DNA of 61,348 bases, filler included, from 8 parts of 8 records of this genome joined end to end with filler, not necessarily neighbours in it, one strand, 5' to 3'; numbered from the whole stretch's first letter, positions 5,888 to 56,080 are shown. Program-made: numbers and translations. The notes: a model not told the origin generated them from the letters alone.

Positions 5888-5987
5888 NNNNNNNNNNNNN
5901 NNNNNNNNNNNNNNNNNNNNNNNNNNNNNNNTTAATTAATTAANNNNNNNNNNNNNNNNNNNNNNNNNNNNNNNNNNNNNNNNNNNN
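5888..5987. other. Artificial contig spacer (44 N + TTAATTAATTAA + 44 N); identical spacers at 13277-13376, 21729-21828, 28062-28161, 36788-36887, 48321-48420, 55981-56080
   Basis: Same 100-nt structure with stops in all six frames; genes are truncated at several junctions and composition changes across them. Confidence 0.98.
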
Positions 5988-13227: not shown

Positions 13228-13384
13228 GCGCGTTGCCGGGGGCGGGATGCCTTCGGCGAGGATTTAAGTCCATTTGNNNNNNNNNNNNNNNNNNNNNNNN
13301 NNNNNNNNNNNNNNNNNNNNTTAATTAATTAANNNNNNNNNNNNNNNNNNNNNNNNNNNNNNNNNNNNNNNNNNNNGGCCCCAA

Positions 13385-16300
13385 GTGGGTGCCAACTGCA
13401 CGCTTCCTCTAGAACTACAGATCACGGACGTAACTGTACGGCCTAGGCCGCAGGCGTGGCGCAATGGCAAGCCTCGAAAAGGTTTGGAGGGCGAACGAGT
13501 GTCCGTCTACGTGTCTGGAACCACCGCGGAGGGTTTTGGCGTGGTGCTGGAGGTCGCCGACTTCAAGCCGTATGTCTTCATCCGCGTGCCGGAGGAGTGG
13601 CAGAGTGACGACGCCGCAAATTTCGTGGCAACCCTCAACAAAGCCCACACGCGTGGCCGTGGCGAGCCCATGACGGGGGAGCTGCTGCGCAGGTTCCATG
13701 CGGTTGGGTACCGACCGGGTCCTGATGGGCAGCCGTTTCGCTTCAATTTCGTGAAAGTGGGGTTTCCCACGCTGCGCCTCCGAGATGCTGTCTGCAAGCA
13801 CTTCAAGGCTGCCCCTGGGGGCACCCGGCGACCGGGGAACGATGCCATGTGGACTGGACTGCTCCGGGCAATGGGTATGGCTCACTCGCCTGCAGATCTT
13901 GAAGCACTTGGGGACGAAGTGTTCACTCTCCACCACGACCAGATTCCCCATGCGCAAGCATTCATGAACACCGTTGGCGTATCAGCGTCGGCGTGGCTTC
14001 GGGTCGATGCTGGTGTGTTGGTTGCTGCAACGAAAAGCCCTCACAAGTTCAGCAACATGCAGGTCGAGGTGCAGCGGGTAAAGGTTGCTGACCTGCATCC
14101 TGTTGAGCGGAGCGCCATGGCACCAATGGTAATTCTCAGCTTCGACATCGAAAGCTACTCCGAGTCCCGAGAGTTTCCCAAGTGGTGGAACCCCGATGAC
14201 AAGATTATTAACGTTGGCATGAATTTTGCCACTTGTGCTGGTGCGACCAAGCTCCCTGTGAGCGATGGCGCTGGTGGTGACAAGGTTGAAGCGAAAGTCT
14301 TGGGTGATGGCATCTTGCGGACGGTGCTGTGCCTTGGTGCAACAGGCAACAGCGACGACGTGCACATTTCAACGTTCGACACGGAGGCTGAGCTACTCTC
14401 CGCTTTTCAAGAACGAATAGCAGACCCTGGTCTTGACCCAGATATTTTGCTCGGCTACAACATTTTTGACTTCGACTTCATGTACCTGGCACAGCGTGCT
14501 GCGCTCATCACTCTCATGCGGCAGTTGCAGCAGAAGCCTTGGCCGGAAGTGGACGCGTTGTGGCGCTCAACGCGCAAGAAGGTAGCCGCGTTCAACGGAT
14601 ACGCCGACAGCTATCGGGCTTGTTCTGATTCTGACATCAAGGGCAAGAAAGCAATTCTGCAGCGGATGCACGCGATATTTGAGACCAGGGGGTCACGACT
14701 TCCTTCAATGCCGTCAGAGCCCATGCTGCTTGGCAAATACGAGACTGCCGATGAGCTTCGAGCAGCATGGACCTACTTTGGAGGCCAACCCAGCACGACA
14801 TTTAACAGCTGCAGCCGGCTGGCAGCGGATGTGTGCACACTTCAAACTCACACGTTGGAAAGCTCAGCCATGGGGTCCAATGAACTTCGCCGATTTGACA
14901 TGGCAGGCCGTGTGTGCCTTGATTTGTGGCTGCACCTGAAGAACGGAAACTCCAAACTGAGCAGCTACTCATTGTCGAGCGTGTCCCAGCACTTCTTGGG
15001 ACTTGACAAAGCAGACATGCCCTACAATACGCTCTTTGACTACTACGCAAGCGGAGATCCACAAAAGCGCGCTGAGATAGCAGCGTACTGCAGCCGTGAT
15101 TGTGATCTTCCCATTTTGTTGGTGAACAAGCTCGGGACCATATCCGACCTTGTGGAAATGTCTCGTGTGTGTCGCACTCCACTTCCAGCACTTACAACTC
15201 GAGGGCAGCAGGTAAAAGTTTACTCACAACTTGCGTTCGAGGTTGAGTGTGCTGGAGCTGTCCTGAACACGGTCAGTATAGCCCCGCCATCGACGTACGT
15301 GGGTGCAACCGTCATTGAGCCAAAACCTGGGTACCATGACTTGCCGGTTGCGACGCTGGACTTTGCCTCGCTGTATCCTTCCATCATGCAAGCAAACAAC
15401 ATCGGGCCAGGGTCTTATGTCCTTCCGGGGGACGTTGCACATGTGCGACAAATGGCCGCAGACGGCAAAGTTGAAGTCAACGTGATTTCTACTGCTGCGG
15501 ACAACCCGCAGTCAGCAATTGCAAACCTACACGCCAAGCAGCGTGAGGCCCAGTCACCGTCGACCCCATCCTCCAACTGCTCCGAGGAAGACACTGGAGT
15601 GGGCGCTCTTGAACGTATTGGCAACGATGGGGGTGGAGCAGCTGGTGCTGCAGAAAAGCAGGATGACACCACGCACCTTTTCGTCGCTAGCACAACGTAC
15701 AAAGGTCTGGTTCCAAAGTTGCTGTCCAAACTGCTTCATGCCCGTTCAGAAGTAAAAAAACAAATGAAGAAAGAGAAAGACAAGTTCAAATACGGCATGC
15801 TCAACAGTAAGCAGCTGGCAATCAAGATATCTTGCAACTCTGTCTACGGTTTCTTTGGTGTGAAGGCGGGATATCTTCCGTGCTGGCCTGTTGCTGCTTG
15901 CACGACTGCTACTGGACGACGGTATATCGACCAAACGAAAGAAGCAGTGGAGTCCAAGTACACGAAGGCTAATGGCTATCCGGGCGACGCAGAGGTTGTG
16001 TACGGCGATACAGACTCTGTAATGGTCAAATTTCAGGGGGTTCCACGCAGCATGGACGGAATGAAGCAGGCATGGAAACTTGCCGAGGAAGCAGCTGACT
16101 ACGTTTCAGATGTGACCTTTGCAGCTGAACGTGAAATTGTGCTTGAAGCTGAGAAGGTTTACTGGCCATACATGATTTGGGACACGAAGAAGCGGTACAT
16201 CGGTCGTTGTTTCATGCACCCAGATTATCCACCAAAGATTGACGCAAAAGGTGTCGAATTAGTTCGACGTGATAATGCGAAACTAGTACGTGATATTTAT

Positions 16301-18951
16301 GGCCGCCTTGTCGAGGCTATCATGCCATTGGAGGGCGCTGCGAGAAGTGTCGAAGAGACTCGCGAAGTCGTTGAGCGCCATTTGGAGATGGAGCTCAAAC
16401 GCATTGTCAATGATGAACTTCCTCTCAGTGATTATATTATCACAAAAAGTCTGAAACAAGGCTACAAAAGTGACCATCTTCCGCACGTGCAATTAGTGAA
16501 GAAAATTAACAGGCGCATTAAAACTGGTCAGCTTGTCCGAGAGCCACCGAAGTCTGGCCAGCGCATTCCGTATGTGATTGTGCAAGGCAAAGGGCAGGTC
16601 TACCAGCGAGCGGAAGACCCCGAGTGGATGACTTCGAAGGCTGAATCTGTGGATCACGACGTGCGAAAAAAGGCTCCTAAGCTCGATCGGGTGTATTATC
16701 TTGACCAGCAGCTGAAAAATGCCCTAACAAAGCTGACAATGTATTTTCACACCACAGCCAAAGTGTTTCGAGATGCTGAAGGAGCCGTGTCCCGGCAGCA
16801 AGGTGGCAACCATAGCATCACCAACTTTTTTTGTGCGGGAGCAGGCTCGATTGGCAAGAGGAAACACCCACTAAAGCCCAGTGTGGAGTCAAGCGCAGAC
16901 GTCACCAGCTCCAAGTCGTTGGACGACAGCGAAGCAAGAAAAATGGTGGCCAAGAGGCCCCGCACGGCCGATGAAACCAAATCCGTGGCTGACAAGATTT
17001 CTGCACGGTTGGCCAAGGCGTCTGCCAGCTTAGCAAACCACCGATCTGCAAAGCCGCAATCGAAAAAATCCATTGCAAGACCGAAAACTGCAGCAGCGTC
17101 CAAACGCAAGATCTCGTCGCGGAAAAGCACATCAACAGAGGCGAAGACTACGGTCAAGCGTGTGCGGAAGAAGAAGCACAGTATTCTGGACTCCTCCTCA
17201 GATGAAGATGAGGAGGAGGACGATGAACACAGGCCCATCGACTACGGGCTTGAAGAAGATGATGGGGACGATTTTGACGTCAGCGAAGCGGACACTGCAG
17301 CGCCGATTGGCAGCGATATCGGGATTTCAACTTTTGCCAGTGGCTCGTTAGCACAAGAGCCAAATAGCGCAGACAATAGCCACGACCAAGATACTCGCAC
17401 CTCAAGAGACGAGGGTGCGGCGGACGATGACGATAGCGAGGAAGAATCCAGCGACAGCGACGAGGAGCTTGAAGAAACAGACCCACTTGATCTCGAATCC
17501 CTCGAAAACGTGGCGCAAGAGTGGTTCTTCCGCGCTAGATCCGAAATTTTGTACCCCGCTTCCACGATGCTGGAACAAATCAAGTTTTTTCTTGCTGCAC
17601 CCATTACGCAGGTGAGTTGTCGATGTCGTGTTGCGAGATCGTCCGAAATGCCAACCAGTGCCCGATCCTAACATCTCGACTGTGGTGCGGCCTGCTGCAA
17701 CTAGGCATCCCAAGCTGTGGCCATGATGAGACAGTCGCGTAAAGCAGCTCCGGAGGAAATCGAATTCTGGGACGCTCTTGTCGCAGCCCGGTCAAGCGGT
17801 GACGTGCGTATCCCGACAGCAGCCGAAGTTGCTACGTCCGAAAAGCCCGCATCTGCAATTGCGCAATCGCGGGAGGCGGTCAACACCGGAAGTCCAGACG
17901 AGACTCCTCGCATAGACCCAGGTCAGCTTACAGTGCAAACATTTTCGTCCCTGCAGTGGCATGCATGACGTTTCTTTCCCGTTGGCCGTTCATCGTTGCA
18001 TGATCTGCAGTGCCCGTTGCTTCAACGTATTGTTGACCCGTGCTGATTGTAGGGACCCGCATTGCAGTATTCTGGCCGCTGGACGATGAATGGTACTCTG
18101 GCACCGTCGGTGAATTTGATAACGCGCGCCAGCTGCATTCTATCACCTACGATGACGACGAGCACGCCTGGCTTGATCTTAGTGCCGAAGACTTCAAGGT
18201 GCTTGATACACCAACCCAAAGCAACACAGAAACCAGCAGCGCGGGTTGTTTGGGCAAGAATGAAGGGACGGATGACGCAGCCACAATTGGGTCAATTTCA
18301 TCACTAAACGACAGAAATTGTATCAACAGTGATAAAACGAAGCTCGAGGTGATTGTGGATCCTGTCGAAGCCCTCCGCGCCAAAGAAGAAGCTCTGCTAC
18401 AACAAGATGAGGATGAAAACTCGTTGCTCAATGTGCACATCGCCGTGCATGCTGTGCATGCTGCAGAGCAGAGGCAGATGGAAGACGATGAAAAGCAAGA
18501 CGAAGAATTGAAAGAAGGGCGAAGTCAAGTGCAAGATTCCACGGTTGGTGCTGCCATTGCGACAGCTGAAGCCTGCATGGCTGAATCATCCTCGTCAGGA
18601 GACGAAAACATTGGCAACATCGAATGCGAGCCTTCAACGGCCGACAAGTCTTCTGAGTCCACTCCAACTACTGTCACAGCGGGGGTAGGGGAAATGGACA
18701 AAGCAAATGTTGGGCGTTCCAAATCAGTACTGAAGGTGCTCGCCAAACTCAAAAATTCTGTGGACGTGATACAGCTGAACAACAAGTACAAACAGGACAT
18801 ATCAGCCGCTGCGGCATTAGCTGCAACAATTGCGGCTTATGCTGAGGAAAATGACGACTCAAGTGAATCTAAAATGCTCTCGCAAGAGCAGTCTGAGTTT
18901 GATGACCAATTTGATATTGGGGACATGGACTTTGGCGATGATGTTCTTTAA
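13385..18951 (+). CDS. Family B DNA polymerase of giant-virus type with a long C-terminal extension and Tudor domain; predicted exons 13385-17611, 17705-17921, 18053-18951 (5' end may be incomplete)
   Basis: ExoI SFDIES, ExoII GYNIFDFD, ExoIII YCSRD, motif A DFASLYPS, motif B KISCNSVYG, motif C YGDTDS (16001-16018). Introns 17612-17704 (CAG|GTGAGT...CTAAC...TAG, phase 0) and 17922-18052 (phase 1) join the frames without stops. The PolB call is firm; the splice model is inferred. Confidence 0.85.
18053..18210 (+). other. Tudor-like domain (PDS5/MSH6 type) in the predicted last exon
   Basis: GTRIAVFWPLDDEWYSGTVGEFDNARQLHSITYDDDEHAWLDL matches the VxWPxDxxWYxGxV...HxxxYDDG pattern. Confidence 0.8.
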
Positions 18952-19094
18952 ATATTAACTATGGTCGTGAGTGGCGAACACGATTGTCAACCGTTGGAAA
19001 CGTCGAACAAATTCTGTCTCCGCTCCTTTGTTGTGAGCTTACTGCTTCTCCGTTTGTAGCACACAAGGTAATCACCACGGGGTACTCACAGCAA

Positions 19095-21628
19095 CTACTT
19101 GTGGCGCAACACGGCTGGGATTTCTGGGTCATCGGGCACCTCAACATAATCATCAAAATGTTCAAAGTCAATCGTGCAACGACCTGGATGAAGCAAAAAG
19201 ACAGACAGAGTTGACCGTTGCAGCGCAGGCTGCCTATCATGCGAGAACTACTTCCACATTGTCAAAAACAAGCAAGACCAACACCAATCTCACCGTCATT
19301 TTCAGCACGAGTGCACGGAGCGAAGTCGTGTGAGAACACAAAATCTTGCAGCGAATAAACTTTTCGGCACTGAAGCGTGCATGATGCGTTCGGATCCACC
19401 CCCTCAAGCAAAACCAAGATGGTAAAGTTGCTGAAAGCAGCTAGTTGTTCGCGCAGCTCGTCTGCGTCGCGAGGAGCTGCCGGCACGGTTTGAGTCAGGA
19501 GATAAAAACAAAAAGGCGGTTGGTGAGAGCATGGCATCCAAACAGCCAATATCTACTCCAACAAAAATGCACGCCACGGACCGTGGCGCAAGACGTGCGG
19601 AAGTCTTTGACGGATTTTGGCCCGTGTGCTGTATCGTGGCGATTTCTGAAGGGCGAGTAAAACACAAATTGGTTCTTGTTCAGTGACACAAAGCTTGCGG
19701 CCACGATGCAACACAACCAAGTTCACGCAGCATCGCACCATTGCGCGGCCCAGCTTTGACATCCCGGGCGACGACTTGGAGCTGGAACCGTCCAGCTACC
19801 ACGAACGTCGTTGTGCGATCAGGAAAACAACAGAACACACGGCAAACGCAATTTATTCTGATGGCACCATTGACAGTGACATTTGTTACTCTCATTTACA
19901 AGCCTTCCCGCCCACAAAATACACAGTTTGGGACGTACTGTTGATTGGCGCGAAATCGCTGGGGGAATCTCCAGGGAAATATCGGAATACGAATTCTGCG
20001 AATCAGCTTTTGAGTTGACGAGAGGAAGCGGAGCAATGTCGACAGACTGAGGATCTTTGGGGATCAACGGTTGATACTCTGGACTTTGGGACGGCGATTT
20101 CATCTCATCAATGGTGTCTGGGGAGGATGCACGAGAGTCGTCATTCGCTCCAACTGGCCAGTGATCCCACTTGTGAAGGCTTGCCAACATGGCTTTCGAG
20201 GCCCCTTCCTCTTCGTAGCTGATGAAAACAGCACCGCCATGTTCGATTTTCAACCAAATCAACAACGATTGCATTCAATCCTGTGCAACAGGCTAAGATT
20301 GACCAGAAAAACCAAAACTTACCCAGAATTGGCATCTTGAGCGGCATTGATTCGAATGTGCCGATTCAACAGAGCCTGGGGAGAAAAATAGAGAAGGGAG
20401 AGTGTGAGTTTGTGTTCAATGCCAAAGCAGAAATGGAGGGAGCAGGGAGCAGGGCGTGTATGCATAGTGAAAGGACCAACCTTGGACCGATAAGCCTCCC
20501 CACAAAATTCACAACTGTACAGTTGGCCATCGGATTCGACTGAACTCATGTTACCTCGCTTGTCTGGCCACTTGTAGCTGTTCATTGGGTCATAGCTGCC
20601 CAAAAACACAAAATATACCACCACATAAGCACCCAGTACAGAAAAATGTAGCCTGCATCACTCCATCATTCACCTGCTTCAACGTACTCTTTAGTCGGAA
20701 TGTACAAGAAGTTGCGATGAGACAGCGGGCTCCAGAAATCGATGCGATGGACGACTTGCGACGGCAACATGAGGAGCATCGGGGCGCCTAAATCGTCGTC
20801 GGGATGATTGATGCTCATTGGGTATTGTTGAAACATGAAAGGGATTTCTCGACCAGCATTAAGCATTTCCGCTTCGGTTTCATCCCGGATGCAGTAGCAC
20901 CGCACGTGAGCTTCCAAAATTTGTGAGTGCCGCATTTCGCAGACACGGAACATGAAGTACCACTGTCCGCGGATCTGCCGGATCATCACCTTGTTGCTAA
21001 ATCGCACGGAGTATTTGCGGGTGCCGCCGCGAGCACATTTTGTGTACATGAGTCCGAGCAGAAACGCATTCATCATGAAGCCAATCAAAACCTCGATAGT
21101 GATTACTGTGGTCACGCCGTAACAGCCATTGAAGAACAAGGTGGCACTACCATATCCAACCGTTGTTATTGTAATCGACGAAAAGAGGAACGCATCCGAC
21201 ATGTTCGTGATACCGAGGTGGCAGTCATCATTGGGCACAGCCAGAGCAACAAAAATGCCGGCGAAAAGAATGATCAAGATGAAGTACAGCACACTGTACA
21301 TAAAGAGCACTGATGGCGCTGGCATCTCCACAAGTGTGTGGTAGCAGTCTCGAACGTGAAAGCCCCATCTTCCGGAGTTCCCACACCATCTCTTGCGAAT
21401 GGAGCGCGGGCCTGCTGACAAGATCACGTTGCGTTGCTGCGGCAAGAATTGCTGCAACTCGTGTGCTGCTATCTCAGATTCGACGCCAGATTCTTCGTAC
21501 TCCGAAGGAAACCGCCCCGGTGTTGCGAAGACAGACGAGGTGTGTGCCATGGGCGCGTGCTTGACTTTGAGCTCCGAGCCCACACTTGCATCGTCGTTGG
21601 ACGAAGCCACCAGTGATTGATCGTCCAT
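19095..21628 (-). CDS. Inward-rectifier K+ channel (Kir-like), multi-exon
   Basis: Two TM helices around ITITTVGYG; cytoplasmic motifs VRFSNK, FMFRVCEMR, ILEAHVR, VVHRIDFWSPL and ILVLLEGVD...LQCRKVY. GT-AG introns at e.g. 20687-20596, 20480-20376, 20322-20219; last exon ends IDFEHF...LRHK* at 19095. Middle exons are less certain. Confidence 0.88.
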
Positions 21629-21704
21629 GGTCAGCTGGACTGTGCTTTCTTTTTTAGGCCATTCAGACCAACTACATGCGGCTTCCTGCTTTTTTTTTTG
21701 CCTT

Positions 21705-21728
21705 TCTCTCTCTCTCTCTCTCTCTCTC
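21705..21728. repeat. (CT)n microsatellite at contig end
   Basis: Direct reading. Confidence 0.9.
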
Positions 21729-21828
21729 NNNNNNNNNNNNNNNNNNNNNNNNNNNNNNNNNNNNNNNNNNNNTTAATTAATTAANNNNNNNNNNNNNNNN
21801 NNNNNNNNNNNNNNNNNNNNNNNNNNNN

Positions 21829-28061: not shown

Positions 28062-28161
28062 NNNNNNNNNNNNNNNNNNNNNNNNNNNNNNNNNNNNNNN
28101 NNNNNTTAATTAATTAANNNNNNNNNNNNNNNNNNNNNNNNNNNNNNNNNNNNNNNNNNNN

Positions 28162-36787: not shown

Positions 36788-36887
36788 NNNNNNNNNNNNN
36801 NNNNNNNNNNNNNNNNNNNNNNNNNNNNNNNTTAATTAATTAANNNNNNNNNNNNNNNNNNNNNNNNNNNNNNNNNNNNNNNNNNNN

Positions 36888-48251: not shown

Positions 48252-48477
48252 AGAATGGGAGGTTCGGTCGAGGACGCGGATCCGTGCGCCGGCCTTCCGG
48301 GATCGCCGTAAATACATCCCNNNNNNNNNNNNNNNNNNNNNNNNNNNNNNNNNNNNNNNNNNNNTTAATTAATTAANNNNNNNNNNNNNNNNNNNNNNNN
48401 NNNNNNNNNNNNNNNNNNNNGAGCAACAGGAACGGCGAAGGCGAGAGTGCGCTGCCAATGCCTCCATCGCCGTTTTC

Positions 48478-50996
48478 GTGGTGGCGTTCGTGGTCCTGGT
48501 CTTCGTTCTTGTCCTGAATCGGGACGCAATCGTAATAGCCCCCGTGCCCGTGGACGTGCAATTGACTGACGGTGACGAGAATAATAGCGGGTCTCCTCCC
48601 CTGTCTCCTGCAACGTGCGCGGCAGCTGCTCAGTTGTCGCCTCACCAAGCTTGCGGTGATTTCGGAGCTGTGTCCACGACGCACTACCTCGCGACGAAGG
48701 CGGCAGTTGATGTTCTCCAGGCTGGTGGCAATGCAATCGATGCCTCGGTCGCTGCTCAGCTTATGCTAGGAGTTGTCCAGCCAGAGAGTACAGGGCTGGG
48801 TGGGGGTGCCATGTTCCTCGTGTACAACAACAAGTCCAACGAGGTTCTTGCTTACGATGGCCGCGAGGAGGCTCCCGCTTTGGTCACTGACACTGCCTTT
48901 TGTGTCGATTCTCCCAGCTGCACGAGTGTTTGGCCGTACAGACCCGAGAGGTGTACAGGCGGACTGGCAGTAGGAGTTCCCGGAGTATTGGCGGTGACCG
49001 ACCGTGTTCTGCGCGAGCACGGAACGGTTTCAATGGCACAGCTGGCTGCACCAGCAATCACCGTTGCTCGCGAGGGTTTTCCTATGACTGAGCACCTGCA
49101 CCACCACATCGGTGACAATGCTGAGAGACTGGCGCTGTTTCCTGCCTCTCGACAACTTTGGTTGAACTCCTCCGGCACAGGGCCTCGAGTCAATGTTGGA
49201 GAGACATTCTCCAACCCCGACCTTGCTGCAACGTACGAACTTTTGCTCTCTGGTGATGATGGAGTCGCGAGTTTTTATGGCGGCAGCTTTGGTCAAGAAA
49301 TAGTTGCCGCGCTGAGCGGTGAGGCGGGACGGAATCCTTGGACCAACACGACAGGAGTGATGCAGTTGGAAGACCTGGCTTCCTATCGCGCCGTGCGTCG
49401 CCGCACATACAATACATCGTTCAGAGGAAATACCGTGTTTGGTCACGCTCCGCCCACGAGCGGTGGCCTGATCGTGCTCATGGCGTTGAACCTTCTCGAG
49501 GCGATGGATGCCTCTGCACAGAGTATGGGCACTTTATCACCCTCAAGTCCCGAATGGGTAGCACGTCTTATCAATGCACAAAATCTAGCTTTTGCGGACC
49601 GCAACACTTGGATTGCCGATTCTGACTTTGTCAGCGTGCCAGGCGATGGTCTACTGGACAAAGCATACGCTGCAAGCCGCGTTGCTGAACTTGTCAGCCT
49701 GGTACCTGAGTCAACAATGACGGCAGTACCCATTGCCGCGGGAAGTCCGCCGGGAACGACTGGCCAAACCCGTTGGCGCGCAGGTCCACTCGAAGAAAAG
49801 ATTGCCACCACACATTTCAGCGTGGCTGACCAATTTGGCAACGTAGTGAGTTGGACCACAACCATTGAGGTGAATCTTGGGTCAGGGATTACAGTGCCAG
49901 GCGCGTTTTGGGGCAGCGAGCGCCTGCTAATTTTGCCATGAGACTGACCTTTCATGCACCGATTGACGAAGTGTGCATTGTTCGCATGTCGTTACCTCCT
50001 TTCCCTGTTGTTGCTTCCTGTGAATTTCTTCTGCAGGACGTGGACTTCTCTTAAACAATGAGATGACTGACTTCGATCCTCTCCCTTTCGAAGAAAGTGC
50101 TGAAGGCAGCATGCTCACAGCAAACCGCGTTGAAGGCGGCAAGCTACCTCGAACAACAGCCATCGGTTTGTCACTGTCCTGTTTTTGATCTCTTTAAAAT
50201 CGCCAGGCTTTCTCGCCACACCCACCAACGACTCATCTGTGTTTGTTTTCAAACAGGTGAAGGAGATCGCGAAACGAGTGGTGGAAAGCGTCCTCGTTCG
50301 TCCATGTCTCCAATGATTTTCTTCGAGGATGGTGGAGCGGCTGCACACGGAGATGTGGCTGATCTTCGACGTGCCCGGGCTGTTGCGGTTGGCTCCCCTG
50401 GCGGGTCAAGCATTATTGGCACGGTTCTCAATGTTGTGCTTGATATGATTGTGGTGAGTGCGCCTTGCCCAGTGGGCTGCAAGCAGTCTGTAGTTGTGTT
50501 GTCGACTGGCACTATTCTCAATGTTTGTCTTTCGCCGCATGCTTAGGCTCAAGATACTGCGTTTGCGGCAGTGGAAAGGCCGCGTGTTATCTCAAAAAAT
50601 ACTGAGGCAGCCTATGTCGAGGATCCGCTCTTCACCCAAGTAAAGGATGAGATGCAAACTCGAGGGTTCAGCGCGACCAACGAGTGGGGCCATATTTCGA
50701 TGGGCTTTGTTCAGGTGGGCAGAAAACGCCGTTTGAACTCTGCCAGCAGTATTTCTTGGCCGCCGCTAACCACCTGGTGGTCAAAATGTGTGTTGCAGGT
50801 TGCGGAGCGGTACACGTCTGGTGGATCTGGGGACCTTGGCATGTGCACCTGCGCAGTCGCTGATTCGTTTCGGTTGGACACAGCCAATGCAAGTGCTGCT
50901 TCAAGCCGTGGCAGTGCCGCGCCCACAGCTCGCCGTCAAGCACGCAGAAAGTTGGGCTCGCGATCAGAACCCCCAACGTTGCGGCCAAGAAAGTAA
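48478..50996 (+). CDS. ggt: Gamma-glutamyltransferase; predicted exons ~48478-49900, 50037-50165, 50257-50453, 50547-50714, 50799-50996 (5' end uncertain)
   Basis: GGNAIDA, PESTGLGGG, YDGREEAP, nucleophile TTHFSVAD, spliced GSGITVPGRGLLLNNEMTDF, KRPRSSMSP, GSPGGS. Confidence 0.88.
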
Positions 50997-51238: not shown

Positions 51239-54200
51239 TCATGACGAAACTTGTGCAAGGACTGCTCCAAGCAGTCCTGCTGCAACGTCCTTAGAGAGAA
51301 CGTCTCCGAATCGTGACACTGGTTGAGATGCTTTTCCTGCATTGATTTTACTAGGTGAACTGCTCGATTGAGAGCTATTGTTGCTTGGCGCTGCATTTTC
51401 GGAGTCCTCCTCAACATGGTGGTGCTGCTGCTCAGCTGAATACTGTGGATTCATCCACGCTCTGACGTTCGCGATGGTGCTTCGCACCTCGGCTTGCTGT
51501 CTCGCTGTTAGATGCGGCACAATGTTGGTGCTGTCATCGCCTTCATCGTTGCCGACGCCACAACCTTGGGCAATAACTTTTGTTAGCAACCGACACGCTG
51601 CGTTAATGTGCGAAGCTTTACCGCCATCCGCCGCCAGTCTATCTGCCAGGTCAGTCAATGCATTGCAGGTGGCCTTGAAAACCATCGAGTCCTTTGCTGC
51701 ATGCGCAAGAATTTCCGCTGTGATTGCGTTTGTCTGTTCTGACGCACACCGTGCTTGAGCAGACGAGCGCTGTTGCTGTGAAACTCCCGCACATCCACTG
51801 CTTCCACGAATGGCAATAGCAAGGATCACAGGGACAAAGTGTTCGGTAATGACAGATTGAGAGAAAGCAAGCTTGGAAATAAATCCGCGCAGAAGCTGCG
51901 ATGAACCAGCTACAATTGCAGTTTCGTTGATCCCAAGCACCCCAACCAGTGCTCGTTCCACCAAACCTGCATGCTCGACGCGCCATTCTGCAAGGGACTT
52001 GATAATTGTCGCCTGCGGATCAGCCAGAACAGCCAAGGCTGCGGCAGTGTGGCGATAAATGGCAGCAGTCTCAACAGCGAAAGCATGCGCCGTTGGTGTT
52101 GCAGCCGTTGCGGCTGCCACTGCTTGAGTGGATTCAGAGAAAAATCGAAGCAAAATTGTCTGGCTGGAAGACGTCGACACTAGTCGAAGCGCTTGGTAAT
52201 CGTGTGCGGTTGCCGTTGCAACGGCAACCACAGACCAAAGCAGTTGTTGCGCTGCACCTTGCGCCGGGCGCATATTGGTTGCAGCTGCAAGGCGTGCTGG
52301 GGTGTGTTCTCCCGACTCTTTCTTGCGCCGGCGCTGGCGTGCTGGCGTCGACGACGATTTTGAGGAAGAAACCGACGAGGCAGCCTCACCCTCAGTGAAA
52401 GAGGCAAAGAAAGGCACAATGGTTTGAGTCACTGCATTCAACATGGTGCAGAAGTTGTTCAGTGAGGCTGCCTCAGGCACTTCGTCGCTAGTGCCGTACA
52501 CCTGCCTCTCGTAAATCTCGACGTGGATTTGCAACTTGAAAGCACACAATACAAGGTTGACCAGTGCCTCATCTGTCAATAGCGGACTGGTCGTGGTATT
52601 GAGGTTGTAGGCACTCTCAAGGCGCTGAGCGACTTCTGGAAGAACGCGCTCAAAGCATTGGCGCAAACGCTCCACCGTGGCGGTGGATTCGAGGACTCGG
52701 TCGCGTGCTCCACTGAAATTTTTTGAGAAGATCAGGAGCAACAGGTGTGTTGAAAATGTCGGCGAAAGCTTGCTTGCAGCATATGCGCCACCGGACTGCT
52801 TCTTGTTGTTTGAGCCTTTGAGGCTTCGCTTGGTTGCTTTTCCTTTGCGGCTGCCTGGTTCTTCAAGGGAGTTTGCTGAAAGTGCCACTTCAATGGCGGA
52901 TAAAGCATCGTCGATTATCTCTCCCTCTAGCTCCCACTGGCAGCTCAGCTCCACAAGCGGGGTGAATTCCGCTTCACTGGGCATGCGGCCGGATTCTGCC
53001 AAAGCAGCGAGCTTGGGCAAAATACCCGCACGGAAATCGCCACAATCTTCAGCATCCAGGAGGGCAGCAAGTCGGCACAGCAACGCCTCGACGACTCCAG
53101 GGGGGAAAAACGGCTCCAAACCACGACGAGCCGTCTGGCAAAAGTCACCGGCAAGTGTAGCGCGCAGGTAGGCGGCGGCCTTGGCGCCTCCGCGCTTGCC
53201 AAGATCCTTTGCAATGCTTTCCCAGGTAGCAGTAATCACATGGAGGAGAAGGAGAACCTTGGTGGCATGACCTTTCAGAGCCACGGTGACGTCTTCAGCT
53301 TGATCTTCATTTCCATCTTCCTCTTCACTGTCACCTCCCAGGGATCGTTTGCGACTGCTCGCCTGATCACCTTGGCGTGATGACATAACCTTCAAAATTG
53401 TGACTGTGCACTTGTTCAAAGCGTCAAGCAGACTGCAAACATCGGGCAAAGCCACGTGCTGGCGGAGATTTCCGTAAAAGGCAACCGCAGCAGCTGGATT
53501 AGTTTCCATGAGCACCTTGGCACGCGACAGGCGTTCACGCACACCTCCTTTCTCTGGAAAGTACCTGCGCGAACGAAAAGGCAGGACCACATGACAAGTA
53601 CGCACGACACAGAACGGAGACCTTTTCTCTCGTAGAACTGCTCTTTTGCAGTTCATTTCCATTGCACCAACATTCACCAACGTACGAGTTCAAAAGAAGG
53701 CTCGTCAGCTTTTTTGCAAGTGTGTGCTTTCCAGCGTCACAGGCGAGGCGCTCCAGCAGATCCTCCACGGGAACCACGTCAAAAAATCGAATGTCGCGAA
53801 TACGTTTGACTTGGAGAAGCATGTCAAGGAAGCGTCCGCGAACACGTTCCGACCGATCATGAATGCAGTTTGCCATTGATGGCAAAACTCGCTTCATGGC
53901 GCTGTGGCACAGACGATTGTCCAAGACAAAAGTCAATCCCTCAAACACTGCCGCACGAACGGCTGCCGAACTTTGGTCGTACACAAGGTCCTTGGCAAAA
54001 CACGTTAGGTATTGCTTCTTGAAGGATTCGGGAATAATTTCCCAGAAAGTACCTAAGGTGGCAGATGATTTTGAAAACAAAAAACAGGAGCTGCTGTGAA
54101 AACGAGAGCAAACATCCGTTGGAAGTCGGCTCGACCATGAAAAATACAAAAACTTGTCTACGTACCGAGAATACGGCAGGCACCCTCAATGGCAACCACG

Positions 54201-55447
54201 CGAACTTCCGGACTGGGATCCATCAAGGCAGTTGCAAAGGCAGTGTGCTGGCGCGTAGCCAGCTCCTCAATCTCCACGTGCGCAGTCAGGGACGGCTCCT
54301 GAAGAGGGTAAAGATCGGCGAGCAGAACGATCGCATTGCGGCGGACAGTGGATTTTGCGACCTCCATTGAACGCCACAAGAAAGGTCGGTACAAGCGAAG
54401 CAGCATCGAGTCCACTGCAGCGCCGCCGCCACCCGTATCACGCTTGTGCTCATGGATGGGCGCAAGCACACGCATTAAGTTTTTGAACACATCTGCGTGT
54501 GCGTGAACTGCGAGGAAAAAAAAGTCTTGCAAGCATTTGGTCTCAAAACGGTCGCGCACAGCGTCGTTGCCACTGCGATTGGCGGTATCCCACACGGAGT
54601 AGTACAACTCGCCGTATCGAACAAGCAGGCCTTTTGCCTTTGTGAAAGGGATCTGGTTCTTCACCGCATTGTGCACATCGCTCATCATACTGGGCGACAA
54701 GCTGAAGACGTGAACCAAAAATTTGGTACCGATCTTGTCTTCAAGGAATTTTGGGCTAATGAAGCAGTTCAACAGCTGGCCACGCAGAGACTCACTCGAG
54801 GTGTCGTCAATGTCAAAAATGCTCAGGACATTGCGCAGTGCGTACAATCGCCGCACATCAACCTGGCGCGCGTCCTCTGCCAAAGCCGCGTAGAGCAAGA
54901 GGGGGATGAACCTTGGCGCGAGATTCTCGAAGCCCTCCATCTGCTGCAAGCACCAGATCTCGCAAAACTTTCCGATGGTCTTCTGCAAGGCAATTTCAGT
55001 GTCATCGTTTGCAGAGAAATTGAAGATGAGGTCGTGGAGGTTGCACGCCAGCGAGAAGCAATCTGCGGAGACGTTCTTCGGTTGGCATCCTTGGACATAT
55101 TGCACAATACATGTAGCAATCGCCGACAAGCAAGCGACACTCTCCGTACGAGACTCAGTGCCGTGAGTGTCACTCGGAAGAGTTTGCAGTTCATCAAACA
55201 CCTGCTCTACAGGGATGCCCTCGATGTCACTGATCGAAGTTGCAAACCAGCGGCGCTGGATGATGGATGTCCAGAGCTGTTCGTTCTCGGCCTTGCTCAG
55301 CACAGACATAAGCTCAGGGAGACTCAGACCACCAGCAGTCGAACTCTTCTTGCCGCTCAGAGAGTGCACAAACTCCGCAAAGGCGGACGCAGCTCCATCG
55401 TGAGCGAGCTGGAGAAGCGACTCTTTCAGATTGACAGCGGATGCCAT
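51239..55447 (-). CDS. NCAPG2: Condensin-2 complex subunit G2; exons 55447-54166, 54052-53686, 53564-51239
   Basis: LLRLYRPFLWRS...VRRNA..LLADLYPL, spliced RILGTFWEIIP, IHDRSERVR, LLLNSYFP; both introns have GTACGT donors and AG acceptors in phase. Confidence 0.85.
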
Positions 55448-55719
55448 CACGTCGGAGCAGATAGAAGGAAGTTGTCGCCACAAAAAAAACGAACAAAAAA
55501 GTTCTGAAGCCTAGAGGGTCGCAGTCGCAGTCGTGATCACTTTGCTCTATCTCCGGAATCACGGAAAAAAGAAGTGGCGTAGCAACAGTAAGCACAGCGA
55601 GAAAAAATCGGCACCCTCCGCACAAACAGCGCTCACAAGCACCAAAGATTCCAATCGGTTGCTGGACACCCTTGATCACGATGCCCACCCGCCGCTCAAC
55701 GCACAACAACGCACCACAC

Positions 55720-55980: not shown

Positions 55981-56080
55981 NNNNNNNNNNNNNNNNNNNN
56001 NNNNNNNNNNNNNNNNNNNNNNNNTTAATTAATTAANNNNNNNNNNNNNNNNNNNNNNNNNNNNNNNNNNNNNNNNNNNN

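What the first reader, a model, noticed from the sequence alone, without database searches (positions are those of the whole stretch)
17612..18951. The virus-like polymerase appears spliced onto a chromatin-reader Tudor domain
Seen: CAG|GTGAGT at 17612 with a CTAAC branch point and TAG acceptor at 17704 (phase 0), then a phase-1 intron 17922-18052. These join the PolB frame to ...RIDPGTRIAVFWPLDDEWYSGTV...HSITYDDDE, giving ~1780 aa with basic NLS-like (KRVRKKK) and acidic linkers. Established: this Tudor type occurs in plant and protist MSH6 and PDS5, where some members bind methylated histones. Inference: a PolB-Tudor fusion could target DNA synthesis or repair to marked chromatin. I do not know of this architecture being described. 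Introns occur only in the added tail, consistent with a viral core that acquired host exons.
Basis: partly seen in the sequence, partly recalled or inferred. Interest (0 to 1): 0.8.

Follow-up and report, generated by a model that had tools for sequence, protein, structure and literature searches.

The report
Virus-type DNA polymerase fused to Tudor reader
A marine protist carries an intact, expressed DNA polymerase of the large-DNA-virus type whose gene continues through two short introns into a histone-reader (Tudor) domain, an architecture that could aim DNA synthesis or repair at marked chromatin.

Summary
The window is eight short contigs joined by N spacers. The 13377-21728 piece is eukaryote-like and lies among bacterial pieces. 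It carries an intronless family-B polymerase exon with all catalytic motifs and no Pol-delta zinc-finger tail, then GT-AG introns at 17612-17704 and 17922-18052. Intron 2 is spliced out in an RNA contig. Intron 1 had no RNA cover. A 70%-identical ortholog (L002) has both introns at the same codon and phase with different lengths (71 and 67 nt). Its intron 1 shifts the frame and its exon 2 has no Met before the conserved motif, so that exon is readable only if spliced.

Exon 3 opens with a Tudor barrel. The profile hits PDB 7de9 (Arabidopsis RDM15/PDS5C Tudor with H3K4me1) at E 2.9e-23, and the model fits it at rmsd 0.8 Å. The Trp/Tyr/Tyr cage and acidic pair are kept; the H3R2 pocket is not.

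The polymerase groups with zinc-finger-less, partly intein-bearing metagenomic PolBs, not cellular Pol delta (AU p 5e-6). The flanks are host-like and syntenic between species, and pN/pS is 0.17.

Best reading: a domesticated virus-type polymerase with a chromatin reader. I found no description of this architecture in print. Histone binding and function are untested.

The parts
13377..17611 (+). Exon 1, cut at its 5' end by the contig end (5 codons missing). It holds an intronless family-B DNA polymerase: exonuclease and polymerase core to about aa 1150, then a linker of about 260 aa with basic and acidic tracts and a conserved C-terminal helix-like motif that ends ...QIKFFLAAPITQ at the donor.
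   Evidence: Pfam DNA_pol_B E 6e-100 and DNA_pol_B_exo1 E 2e-22, with no zf-C4pol. P0001 is 100% identical and adds MVSIR. The ortholog P0002/L002 is 70% identical, and its homology stops exactly at the donor. X2 RNA contigs are colinear with the exon and show no joints.
14141..16198 (+). Catalytic motifs: ExoI FDIE 14141-14152, ExoII NIFDFD 14459-14476, ExoIII YCSRD 15086-15100, motif A DFASLYPS 15359-15382, motif B KISCNSVYG 15824-15850, motif C YGDTDS 16001-16018, KKRY 16187-16198.
   Evidence: Regex scan of the translated exon. The motif definitions are recalled general knowledge of family-B polymerases. All are invariant against P0002.
16808..16831 (+). PIP-box-like motif NHSITNFF just after the thumb. 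Inferred to be a PCNA-binding site.
   Evidence: Similar GN(Q/R/H)S(I/L)xxFF motifs stand at the same place in P0002, P0011, P0013 and P0023. Binding was not tested.
17156..17227 (+). Basic NLS-like cluster KRVRKKK followed by the Ser/acidic tract SSSDEDEEEDDE.
   Evidence: Conserved in outline in P0002 (RKKKKKSILDSSSEEEDE).
17612..17704 (+). Intron 1: 93 nt, GTGAGT...CCTAAC...TAG, phase 0. It is in frame but holds two stops (TAA 17669-17671, TAG 17702-17704).
   Evidence: Sequence. L002 has a 71-nt GT..AG intron after the same Gln codon, which shifts the frame. There was no RNA cover here.
17705..17921 (+). Exon 2: 72 codons plus 1 base, with the conserved motif EEIEFWDALVAARSSGDVRIPTAAE.
   Evidence: tblastn against L002 gives 46% identity in another frame. 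The motif is present in 4 of 4 orthologs (window, L002, P0161, P0187).
17922..18052 (+). Intron 2: 131 nt, GTCAGC...TAG, phase 1. Removed in RNA.
   Evidence: X2 joint 17919->18051 'skips 131, GT..AG (cut +2)', depth 4.7, 1 contig, 75 nt on the shorter side. L002 has a 67-nt intron in the same Gly codon.
18053..18210 (+). Single Tudor domain of the RDM15/PDS5C type. Cage residues are W7, Y14 and Y32; acidic residues are D34 and E36 (numbering from 18055).
   Evidence: PDB profile hit 7de9_A E 2.9e-23. AF2 pLDDT is 92-95 with five strands. Foldseek top hit is 7de9_A, rmsd 0.8 Å, 36% identity. Residue roles come from PMC8184781. Pfam PTM_DIR17_Tudor scores only 17.8 bits against a cutoff of 27.2.
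18211..18951 (+). Acidic, poorly conserved tail. It ends in the conserved motif KYKQDISAAAALAATIAAYAEE (about 18784-18849) and an acidic/aromatic end ...FDIGDMDFGDDVL, with stop TAA at 18949-18951.
   Evidence: Alignment with L002, P0158, P0161 and P0187. Weak Pfam Ribosomal_60s hit, E 0.009. No atlas hit.
18934..21728 (-). Context: a convergent inward-rectifier K+ channel gene with 7 RNA-verified GT-AG introns. Its transcript end abuts the Tudor gene's stop codon.
   Evidence: X2 joints at depth 303. Relatives carry Pfam IRK and IRK_C, and P0317 lies on the same 148,816-bp contig as P0002. Colinear with L002.

Best explanation
This is a chromosomal gene of an uncultured or little-studied marine protist. 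It encodes a protein of about 1,787 aa.

Parts of the protein:
- An intronless first exon supplies a complete proofreading family-B polymerase of the large-DNA-virus type. It is delta-like but lacks the CysA/CysB zinc-finger tail that ties cellular Pol delta to its B subunit.
- Next come a PIP-like box and a basic/acidic linker.
- Two short spliceosomal introns then join it to a conserved helical segment.
- After that comes a single Tudor domain of the plant PDS5C/MSH6 kind.
- The protein ends in an acidic tail with a conserved terminal motif.

Likely mechanism (inferred): the basic cluster takes the enzyme into the nucleus. The Tudor aromatic cage docks on a low-methylated lysine of a histone tail, H3K4me1-like. 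The polymerase, probably held on PCNA, then carries out repair or gap-filling synthesis preferentially in chromatin bearing that mark. This parallels the way Tudor-MSH6 and Tudor-PDS5C are thought to bias repair towards gene bodies in plants.

Likely history (inferred): a polymerase gene captured from a large DNA virus was kept under selection and extended with host-type exons.

What is shown: the gene structure (one junction by RNA, the other by comparison), the intact motifs, the Tudor fold with conserved cage, purifying selection, host-like syntenic flanks, and low-level transcription.

What is inferred: the exon 1-exon 2 splice in this species, nuclear import, PCNA use, which histone mark is read, and the biological role.
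For: Gene structure:
- The X2 RNA contig removes 17922-18052 exactly.
- L002 has both introns at the same codon and phase, with lengths 71 and 67 nt against 93 and 131 nt. Its intron 1 changes the frame. Its exon 2 has no in-frame Met before the conserved EIxFWxxLVxAR motif, so that exon can be translated only when spliced to exon 1.
- Homology between the window ORF and P0002 ends at the Gln codon before GT.
- P0161 and P0187 carry exon 2 and exon 3 in one ORF.

Polymerase:
- Pfam E 6e-100 with no zf-C4pol. All exonuclease and polymerase motifs are present.
- The nearest solved structures are Pol delta (3iay, E 8e-107).
- In a 56-row tree it sits (SH-aLRT 100) in a 23-row clade of zinc-finger-less metagenomic PolBs, apart from 15 cellular Pol delta rows.
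- Forcing it together with Pol delta costs 99.7 lnL, p-AU 4.7e-6, in a 27-row subset.
- Several clade members carry intein domains, and one cluster holds Tara 0.22-0.45 µm fraction sequences.
- The top BFVD fold matches are all giant-virus polymerases, with EhV-86 and Pandoravirus first.

Tudor:
- W7 is kept in 4 of 4 orthologs that cover it. Y14, Y32, D34 and E36 are kept in 5 of 5.
- The tail profile finds 1,054 proteins at E<=1e-3. Of the 6 long hits I scanned with Pfam, 5 had Tudor-family domains in chromatin-protein architectures.

Host gene:
- The contig is colinear with L002 through a 7-intron, highly expressed IRK channel gene.
- A 3-repeat Myb gene lies upstream in L002 and L004.
- There are 9 introns in 8.35 kb. 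The mirusvirus paper reports at most 0.65 per kb for any genome and 0.042 per kb for the PolB-bearing order.
- GC3 of the polymerase (0.58) lies within the range of the neighbouring eukaryotic ORFs, 0.51-0.63.
- P0001 is listed on a 1.71-Mb contig.

Selection: pN/pS is 0.17 for the core and 0.30 for the Tudor domain, with synonymous sites saturated at pS about 0.82.
Against: - No RNA covers the exon 1-exon 2 junction.
- In the window intron 1 is in frame and ends the ORF at 17671 if retained, so a Tudor-less isoform is possible.
- In 3 of 4 orthologs (window, P0161, P0187) an in-frame Met stands at the same place early in exon 2. A stand-alone Tudor protein could therefore start there.
- Pfam's own Tudor model is below its gathering score, 17.8 against 27.2 bits.
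- The two RDM15 residues that hold H3R2 (E647, Q654) are Ala and Glu here, so the mark that is read may not be H3K4me1.
- None of the nearest polymerase relatives carries a virus name or was seen in a viral genome context. The 13 of the 80 IMG/VR loci I put in the tree form a different clade. 'Viral origin' is therefore indirect.
- Only about 15 kb of flank was seen, so a large integrated element is not excluded.
- The AU grouping was chosen after the first tree had been seen.
- The tail search of 1.84 billion representatives found no long protein with the whole tail, so no independent gene model shows the fusion.
Confidence: 0.62

Rival explanations
1. There are two adjacent genes rather than one. 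The polymerase ends at the TAA at 17669-17671. A separate small Tudor protein is transcribed from its own start inside or just after 'intron 1' and begins at Met 17726.
For: No RNA bridges 17611/17705. An in-frame Met is present at the equivalent place in 3 of 4 orthologs. ORF callers list the polymerase and the tail as separate proteins (P0001/P0002 and P0157/P0158).
Against: L002 has no Met before the conserved exon 2 motif, and its exon 2 lies in another frame than the polymerase ORF. Amino-acid conservation starts right at the acceptor (A-x-x-A-V in the window, L002 and P0187), upstream of the Met. Polymerase homology stops exactly at a GT after the same Gln codon in both species. Both exons keep matching phases (0, then 1) despite different intron lengths. 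The separate ORF calls come from prokaryote-style gene finders that cannot splice.
Confidence: 0.15
2. The locus belongs to a large DNA virus that uses the host spliceosome: an integrated or episomal mirusvirus or nucleocytovirus. The Tudor domain would tether the viral replicase to host or virus-encoded nucleosomes.
For: The polymerase is of the viral, zinc-finger-less type. Mirusviruses carry many GT-AG introns of about 80 nt, encode histones, and have a WCTAAC branch consensus in the PolB-bearing order (PMC12768974, sections and passages). Intron 1 here has CCTAAC. Persistent viruses in protist cultures exchange genes with hosts (bioRxiv 10.64898/2026.07.28.741200, sections and passages).
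Against: No viral hallmark was seen in the 15 kb of L002, the 9.3 kb of L004 or the window contig. The neighbours are an IRK channel with 7 introns and a Myb factor. Intron density of 1.08 per kb exceeds the highest genome value in that paper (0.65) and is about 25 times that of the PolB-bearing Demutovirales. In that paper the intron-rich orders lack PolB. The neighbour's RNA depth is 303 against about 4.5 for the polymerase. P0001's listed contig of 1.71 Mb is larger than the 650-kb MAG ceiling used there.
Confidence: 0.15
3. The gene is a divergent cellular Pol-delta paralog of this protist lineage, never viral, that lost the zinc-finger tail and gained a Tudor domain.
For: The closest solved structures and the closest named proteins are Pol delta catalytic subunits. 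Named giant-virus polymerases in BFVD are only 18-25% identical.
Against: Scores to unnamed zinc-finger-less PolBs (642-692 bits) are far above those to Pol delta (about 397 bits). Pol delta is monophyletic without it, and the AU test rejects the union. The 4.3-kb exon has no intron, while the neighbouring gene has 7 in 2.7 kb.
Confidence: 0.06
4. The gene is a decaying endogenous viral fragment. The Tudor ORF and the splice signals would then be chance.
For: Endogenous giant-virus polymerase genes are common in protist genomes (search listings and abstracts).
Against: The 1,429-codon frame is intact with all catalytic motifs. pN/pS is 0.17 at saturated pS. The region is transcribed and spliced. 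The tail is conserved in at least five lineages.
Confidence: 0.02

Closest known systems
Arabidopsis RDM15/PDS5C Tudor domain (PDB 7DE9) and the Tudor domain of plant, brown-algal and cryptomonad MSH6
   Same: It has the same small five-strand Tudor barrel: profile E 2.9e-23, rmsd 0.8 Å, 36% identity. The Trp/Tyr/Tyr cage and the acidic pair that coordinates a monomethyl-ammonium are kept. The design is also the same: a reader joined by a long disordered linker to a DNA-maintenance enzyme (bioRxiv 10.1101/2024.10.15.618488 and 10.1101/2025.05.08.652912, passages).
   Different: The partner here is a DNA polymerase, not a mismatch sensor or a cohesin regulator. The Tudor domain is C-terminal. 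D645 is Glu, and the H3R2-binding Glu647/Gln654 are Ala/Glu. Neither preprint mentions a polymerase (0 occurrences in each).
Cellular DNA polymerase delta catalytic subunit (POLD1/Pol3)
   Same: It has the nearest solved fold and sequence (E about 1e-107). The exonuclease and polymerase motifs are the same.
   Different: It has no CysA/CysB zinc-finger C-terminal domain. It lies outside the Pol-delta clade. It carries a linker, a Tudor domain and an acidic tail instead.
PolB of nucleocytoviruses and mirusviruses, and endogenous giant-virus elements in protist genomes
   Same: It is a delta-like core without the zinc-finger tail. Its closest relatives are unnamed marine metagenomic PolBs, some with inteins. 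The BFVD top matches are giant-virus polymerases. Viral genes resident in host genomes are well known (listings).
   Different: Here the gene stands alone between cellular genes. It is conserved in synteny between species with saturated synonymous divergence. It is under purifying selection, spliced and extended by a reader domain.
Actinobacterial Y-family polymerase DinX/DinB1 with a C-terminal Tudor domain
   Same: It is a DNA polymerase with a C-terminal Tudor-fold domain (PMC12926913, one passage).
   Different: DinB1 is a bacterial translesion polymerase of another family with no histones to read. No homology between the two was tested.
Metazoan MSH6-PWWP
   Same: It shows convergent use of a methyl-lysine reader to place a DNA-repair enzyme on marked chromatin.

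Membership tests
Family B DNA polymerase | Pfam DNA_pol_B and DNA_pol_B_exo1 above the gathering score | tested here: met
   335.6 and 80.4 bits against cutoffs of 23
Family B DNA polymerase | Exo I-III and polymerase motifs A, B and C intact | tested here: met
   FDIE, NIFDFD, YCSRD, DFASLYPS, KISCNSVYG, YGDTDS and KKRY are all present. The motif definitions are recalled.
Cellular Pol delta catalytic subunit | C-terminal CysA/CysB zinc-finger domain (Pfam zf-C4pol) | tested here: not met
   No zf-C4pol hit at E<=1 in exon 1, exon 2 or exon 3. The named Pol delta hits do carry PF14260.
Cellular Pol delta catalytic subunit | Branches within the eukaryotic Pol delta clade | tested here: not met
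   The 15 Pol delta rows form one group (100) without it. AU p 4.7e-6 against the union.
Large-DNA-virus PolB (nucleocytovirus/mirusvirus type) | Clusters with viral PolBs | tested here: inconclusive
   It sits in a 23-row clade of unnamed zinc-finger-less PolBs, some with inteins. The 13 IMG/VR giant-virus rows form another clade. Named viral polymerases could only be compared by fold, at 18-25% identity.
Large-DNA-virus PolB (nucleocytovirus/mirusvirus type) | Lies in a viral genome beside hallmark genes | tested here: not met
   The flanks hold an IRK channel and a Myb gene. No hallmark appeared in the ORFs scanned. Only about 15 kb was seen.
RDM15/PDS5C-type Tudor (Pfam PTM_DIR17_Tudor and kin) | Pfam model above the gathering score | tested here: not met
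   17.8 bits against 27.2, E 0.003, covering 27 of 48 profile positions
RDM15/PDS5C-type Tudor (Pfam PTM_DIR17_Tudor and kin) | Sequence-profile homology to the solved domain | tested here: met
   The 19-sequence profile against PDB gives 7de9_A at E 2.9e-23, gapless over 58 residues
RDM15/PDS5C-type Tudor (Pfam PTM_DIR17_Tudor and kin) | Five-strand barrel fold | tested here: met
   pLDDT 92-95 with five strands. Foldseek top hit 7de9_A, rmsd 0.8 Å, TM(target) 0.82.
RDM15/PDS5C-type Tudor (Pfam PTM_DIR17_Tudor and kin) | Aromatic cage Trp616/Tyr623/Tyr641 | tested here: met
   W7, Y14 and Y32 stand at the aligned places. They are kept in 4 of 4, 5 of 5 and 5 of 5 orthologs.
RDM15/PDS5C-type Tudor (Pfam PTM_DIR17_Tudor and kin) | Asp643/Asp645 pair that selects monomethyl-lysine | tested here: inconclusive
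   D34 is kept. The second position is Glu in 5 of 5 orthologs. The effect of Asp to Glu is unknown.
RDM15/PDS5C-type Tudor (Pfam PTM_DIR17_Tudor and kin) | H3R2 pocket Glu647/Gln654 | tested here: not met
   Ala38 and Glu45 stand at these places in 5 of 5 orthologs
RDM15/PDS5C-type Tudor (Pfam PTM_DIR17_Tudor and kin) | Binds H3K4me1 peptide | not testable with these tools
   Needs ITC or a peptide array
Spliceosomal introns joining the exons | GT-AG ends, local size range, removal in RNA | tested here: met
   Intron 2 is removed in an X2 contig. Both introns are GT-AG and within the 92-143 nt range of the 7 verified neighbouring introns.
Spliceosomal introns joining the exons | Intron 1 removed in RNA | not testable with these tools
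The comparative evidence is positive.

The most novel reading that the evidence does not exclude
A replicative-type polymerase captured from a large DNA virus has been domesticated by a protist lineage and wired to the histone code. Its PDS5C/MSH6-type Tudor domain would recruit a proofreading polymerase to H3K4me1-like chromatin. That would add a DNA-synthesis arm to epigenome-targeted repair and shape local mutation rates. A bolder variant: this host-encoded, chromatin-tethered viral-type replicase is what nuclear large DNA viruses lacking any polymerase gene depend on, or what the host uses against them.
Probability: 0.3. Interest if true: 0.85.

Novelty: new variant of a known kind. Interest (0 to 1): 0.65.

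Why it matters
Reader-domain fusions to MSH6 and PDS5 are the main mechanistic evidence that eukaryotes bias DNA repair towards marked chromatin. So far they involve a mismatch sensor and a cohesin regulator.

A proofreading family-B polymerase carrying the same kind of Tudor domain would extend that principle to DNA synthesis itself, in a lineage far from plants. It would also be a clear case of a viral replication enzyme kept and remodelled by a host. The gene is conserved in synteny, under purifying selection and spliced.

It gives a direct experimental handle: a small domain for peptide binding and a polymerase for activity and localisation assays. My four literature searches on this point and the two Tudor-fusion preprints I queried gave no description of a family-B polymerase fused to a Tudor domain. 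Supplementary tables of those papers could not be read and might list such architectures.

Tried and rejected
- RNA for intron 1: run X2 has no contig over 17283-17840, and no listed holder is on record as RNA (X2 is a guessed RNA run). The junction stays unseen.
- Whole genome: none is held. The nearest genome, G001 (bacterial), has no match to the contig.
- Earlier findings of this scan: nothing by place, words or sequence.
- Viral-contig scans: the polymerase gave one distant locus (32% identity) and the tail gave none.
- First genome-contig scan: nothing.
- Second genome-contig scan: 15 loci, none orthologous. L089 turned out to be a eukaryotic Pol delta with zf-C4pol on a contig labelled as a bacterial MAG. 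The neighbours of L092 were uninformative.
- Word-based search for long proteins with this Tudor domain: none at E<=0.01, which is weak evidence.
- Names for the closest polymerases and tails: none of use.
- Host taxon from the IRK neighbour: 6 hits, none named to a species.
- Protein atlas on the acidic tail: no usable hit.
- Variant genetic code or stop read-through across 'intron 1': rejected. The L002 intron is 71 nt and shifts the frame, and the ORFs end in TAA or TGA.
- Global identity of the introns between species (48 of 71 and 54 of 67): not meaningful at these lengths and not used. The '<' dN/dS figures printed by that script used an arbitrary divisor, so only pN/pS is reported.
- The X1 joint 15393->15985, with 22-nt sides and loose ends, is a different polymerase-like contig touching conserved motifs. 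It is not a deletion.
- First attempt at the AU test returned no answer. It was repeated on 27 of the 56 rows.
Full report
**What the window is.** The 61,348-base window is not one molecule. Seven spacers of N44-TTAATTAATTAA-N44 cut it into eight pieces. Pieces with GC near 0.6 carry bacterial genes such as a LysR regulator and a quinone oxidoreductase. The piece 13377-21728 has GC 0.47-0.53 and eukaryote-type genes. No whole genome is held for the window, and the nearest held genome, a bacterium, does not contain this piece. Another low-GC piece encodes a condensin II subunit. The assembly therefore mixes bacterial DNA with nuclear DNA of a eukaryote.

**The observation.**
- Donor CAG|GTGAGT at 17612, CCTAAC about 33 nt before the acceptor, and TAG ending at 17704.
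- Donor G|GTCAGC at 17922, and TAG ending at 18052.
- Phases are 0 and 1.
- Joining the three exons by coordinates gives a 1,782-codon frame with a single terminal stop.
- The identical database ORF P0001 shows that only five residues (MVSIR) are lost to the contig end.

**Are the introns real?** One public run that holds the locus, X2, is labelled as a guess at RNA. It behaves as RNA: its contigs remove seven CT..AC (minus-strand GT..AG) introns of 92-143 nt from the neighbouring gene at depth 303. In the same run one contig skips exactly 131 nt with GT..AG ends between 17921 and 18053, at depth 4.7 and with 75 nt on the shorter side. This matches the depth of 4-5 seen in patches along the polymerase exon, which show no joints. 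Intron 2 is therefore shown. X2 has no cover between 17283 and 17840, so intron 1 was not tested by RNA.

The comparative evidence for intron 1 is good. A seawater metagenome contig, L002, encodes a 70%-identical polymerase.
- Homology to the window ORF ends at the same Gln codon, followed by GT in both species.
- L002 then has a 71-nt GT..AG intron that changes the reading frame.
- Its homologous exon 2 is 46% identical.
- Its 67-nt intron lies in the same Gly codon.
- Its homologous exon 3 matches at E 7e-24.
- L002's exon 2 has no in-frame Met before the motif EIxFWxxLVxAR, which is conserved in 4 of 4 orthologs. That motif can be translated there only through splicing.
- Conservation begins directly at the acceptor (A-x-x-A-V).
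- Two more distant orthologs, P0161 and P0187, encode exon 2 and exon 3 as one ORF.

Against this, 3 of 4 orthologs have a Met early in exon 2. In the window a retained intron 1 would end the protein at 17671. A Tudor-less polymerase isoform or a stand-alone Tudor product cannot be excluded.

**The polymerase.**
- Exon 1 scores 335.6 bits on Pfam DNA_pol_B and 80.4 bits on the exonuclease domain, with no zf-C4pol.
- All exonuclease and polymerase motifs are intact.
- The nearest solved structures are Pol delta catalytic subunits, E about 1e-107.
- The nearest sequences after P0001 and P0002 are unnamed marine metagenomic PolBs of about 1,100-1,550 aa without the zinc finger. Several have intein domains, and they score 642-692 bits. 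Named Pol delta scores about 397 bits. One such cluster includes Tara 0.22-0.45 µm fraction sequences.
- In a 56-row tree the window and P0002 form a pair on a long stem. The pair sits inside a 23-row clade of these PolBs (SH-aLRT 100), apart from 15 Pol delta rows and 13 IMG/VR giant-virus rows.
- Forcing the pair into Pol delta costs 99.7 log-likelihood units (p-AU 4.7e-6) in a 27-row subset. The grouping was chosen after the first tree had been seen.
- A model of the core (mean pLDDT 77.9) finds giant-virus polymerases first in BFVD: EhV-86, Pandoravirus and Heterosigma akashiwo virus, at 18-25% identity.

I could not place named viral sequences in the tree. The IMG/VR relatives are no closer than 39% to the nearest clade. 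The donor group, nucleocytovirus or mirusvirus, stays open, and 'virus-type' is an indirect inference.

**The tail.** After a PIP-like NHSITNFF come a basic cluster, Ser/acidic tracts and a conserved segment that runs across the exon 1/exon 2 junction.

Exon 3 opens with a Tudor domain.
- Pfam's PTM/DIR17-like Tudor model is below threshold.
- A profile of the window tail and its ortholog finds 1,054 proteins at E<=1e-3 among 1.84 billion representatives. Most have several Tudor repeats.
- Of six long hits scanned, five carry Tudor-family domains in chromatin-type architectures (bromodomain, PHD, DDT), and none has a polymerase domain.
- A 19-sequence profile hits PDB 7de9_A at E 2.9e-23.
- The AlphaFold model has pLDDT 92-95 over residues 1-50 and five strands.
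- Its top Foldseek match is 7de9, the RDM15 Tudor domain bound to H3K4me1 (rmsd 0.8 Å over 50 columns, 36% identity). RDM15 is PDS5C (passages).
- The paper behind 7DE9 names Trp616, Tyr623 and Tyr641 as the cage, Asp643 and Asp645 as the monomethyl selectors, and Glu647 and Gln654 as the H3R2 pocket (passages).
- In the gapless alignment these correspond to W7, Y14, Y32, D34, E36, A38 and E45. All are constant among the orthologs that cover them.

Methyl-lysine reading is thus plausible, and the exact mark is uncertain. The rest of exon 3 is acidic and poorly conserved. The exception is a terminal motif (SAAAALAATIAAYAEE...FD.GD.DFGDD), which has no informative match.

**Host gene or virus?**
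- The window contig and L002 are colinear beyond the gene, through a convergent inward-rectifier K+ channel gene.
- Upstream in L002 and L004 lies a three-repeat Myb gene.
- No viral hallmark was seen in the ORFs scanned.
- Synonymous sites between the two species are saturated (pS about 0.82). pN/pS is 0.17 for the core, 0.30 for the Tudor domain and about 0.5 for the linker and exon 2.
- GC3 of the polymerase is within the range of the neighbouring eukaryotic ORFs.
- Intron-rich mirusviruses are a real alternative (PMC12768974). However, that paper reports that the intron-rich orders lack PolB, and that the PolB-bearing order has 0.042 introns per kb. This contig has 1.08 per kb.

I therefore favour a resident nuclear gene. 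An integrated or episomal element is a minority rival, because only about 15 kb of flank was visible.

**Comparison with what is known.**
- Tudor or PWWP fusions to MSH6, and Tudor fusions to PDS5, are described as epigenome-targeted repair. Neither preprint I queried mentions a polymerase.
- An actinobacterial Y-family polymerase with a C-terminal Tudor domain is mentioned in one paper.
- Searches combining polymerase, Tudor, giant-virus and endogenous terms gave nothing on this architecture.
- Supplementary tables could not be read.

The finding is best filed as a new variant of a known kind: a reader domain fused to a DNA-maintenance enzyme. The enzyme here is a domesticated virus-type family-B polymerase.

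**Verdict.** Two steps remain open: the exon 1-exon 2 junction in RNA, and any biochemical proof of histone binding or of the enzyme's role.

Noticed in passing
window 5888-5987, 13277-13376, 21729-21828, 28062-28161, 36788-36887, 48321-48420, 55981-56080: The window is eight contigs joined by N44-TTAATTAATTAA-N44 spacers. Bacterial pieces (GC about 0.6) and eukaryotic pieces (GC about 0.5) are mixed, so the assembly or bin is contaminated one way or the other.
   Followed up: partly
window 18934-21728 (-): Inward-rectifier K+ channel gene (Pfam IRK and IRK_C in relatives) with 7 RNA-verified introns of 92-143 nt. Its RNA contig depth is about 303, roughly 65 times that of the polymerase. Its transcript end overlaps the Tudor gene's stop codon.
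   Followed up: partly
window 16036 and 19399: The DNA contig of run X1 lacks one base at each place. 16036 lies in a G5 run inside the polymerase. The RNA contig of X2 and the ortholog agree with the window, so this is probably a homopolymer error in that run's contigs.
   Followed up: partly
window 15372-16017: An X1 contig touches only 22 nt at the motif A and motif C regions and then runs on unlike the window (loose ends of 255 nt). This points to a second family-B polymerase gene in the same sample, possibly the host's Pol delta.
   Followed up: no
window 54158-55510 (-): ORF with a condensin II non-SMC subunit domain (E 2e-39) on another low-GC piece. A gamma-glutamyltranspeptidase ORF lies at 48421-49941.
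   Followed up: no
window 18784-18948: The conserved C-terminal motif SAAAALAATIAAYAEE...FDIGDMDFGDDVL resembles the acidic tail of ribosomal P proteins (Pfam Ribosomal_60s, E 0.009). It is invariant in its core in five lineages. Its function is unknown.
   Followed up: partly
window 15500-15660 (aa 708-761 of exon 1): A low-confidence, Ser/Gly/acid-rich insertion lies between polymerase motifs A and B. It differs in length and sequence from the ortholog.
   Followed up: no
L089 9614-12612: A eukaryotic Pol delta with zf-C4pol, split over two ORFs, lies on a 314,690-bp contig filed as a Deltaproteobacteria MAG. It sits next to a homeobox gene. This is another eukaryotic contig binned as a bacterium.
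   Followed up: partly
window 21690-21728: A GA-rich simple repeat (translated as RERERE) stands at the contig end. The read-laying tool skipped reads here as repeats.
   Followed up: no
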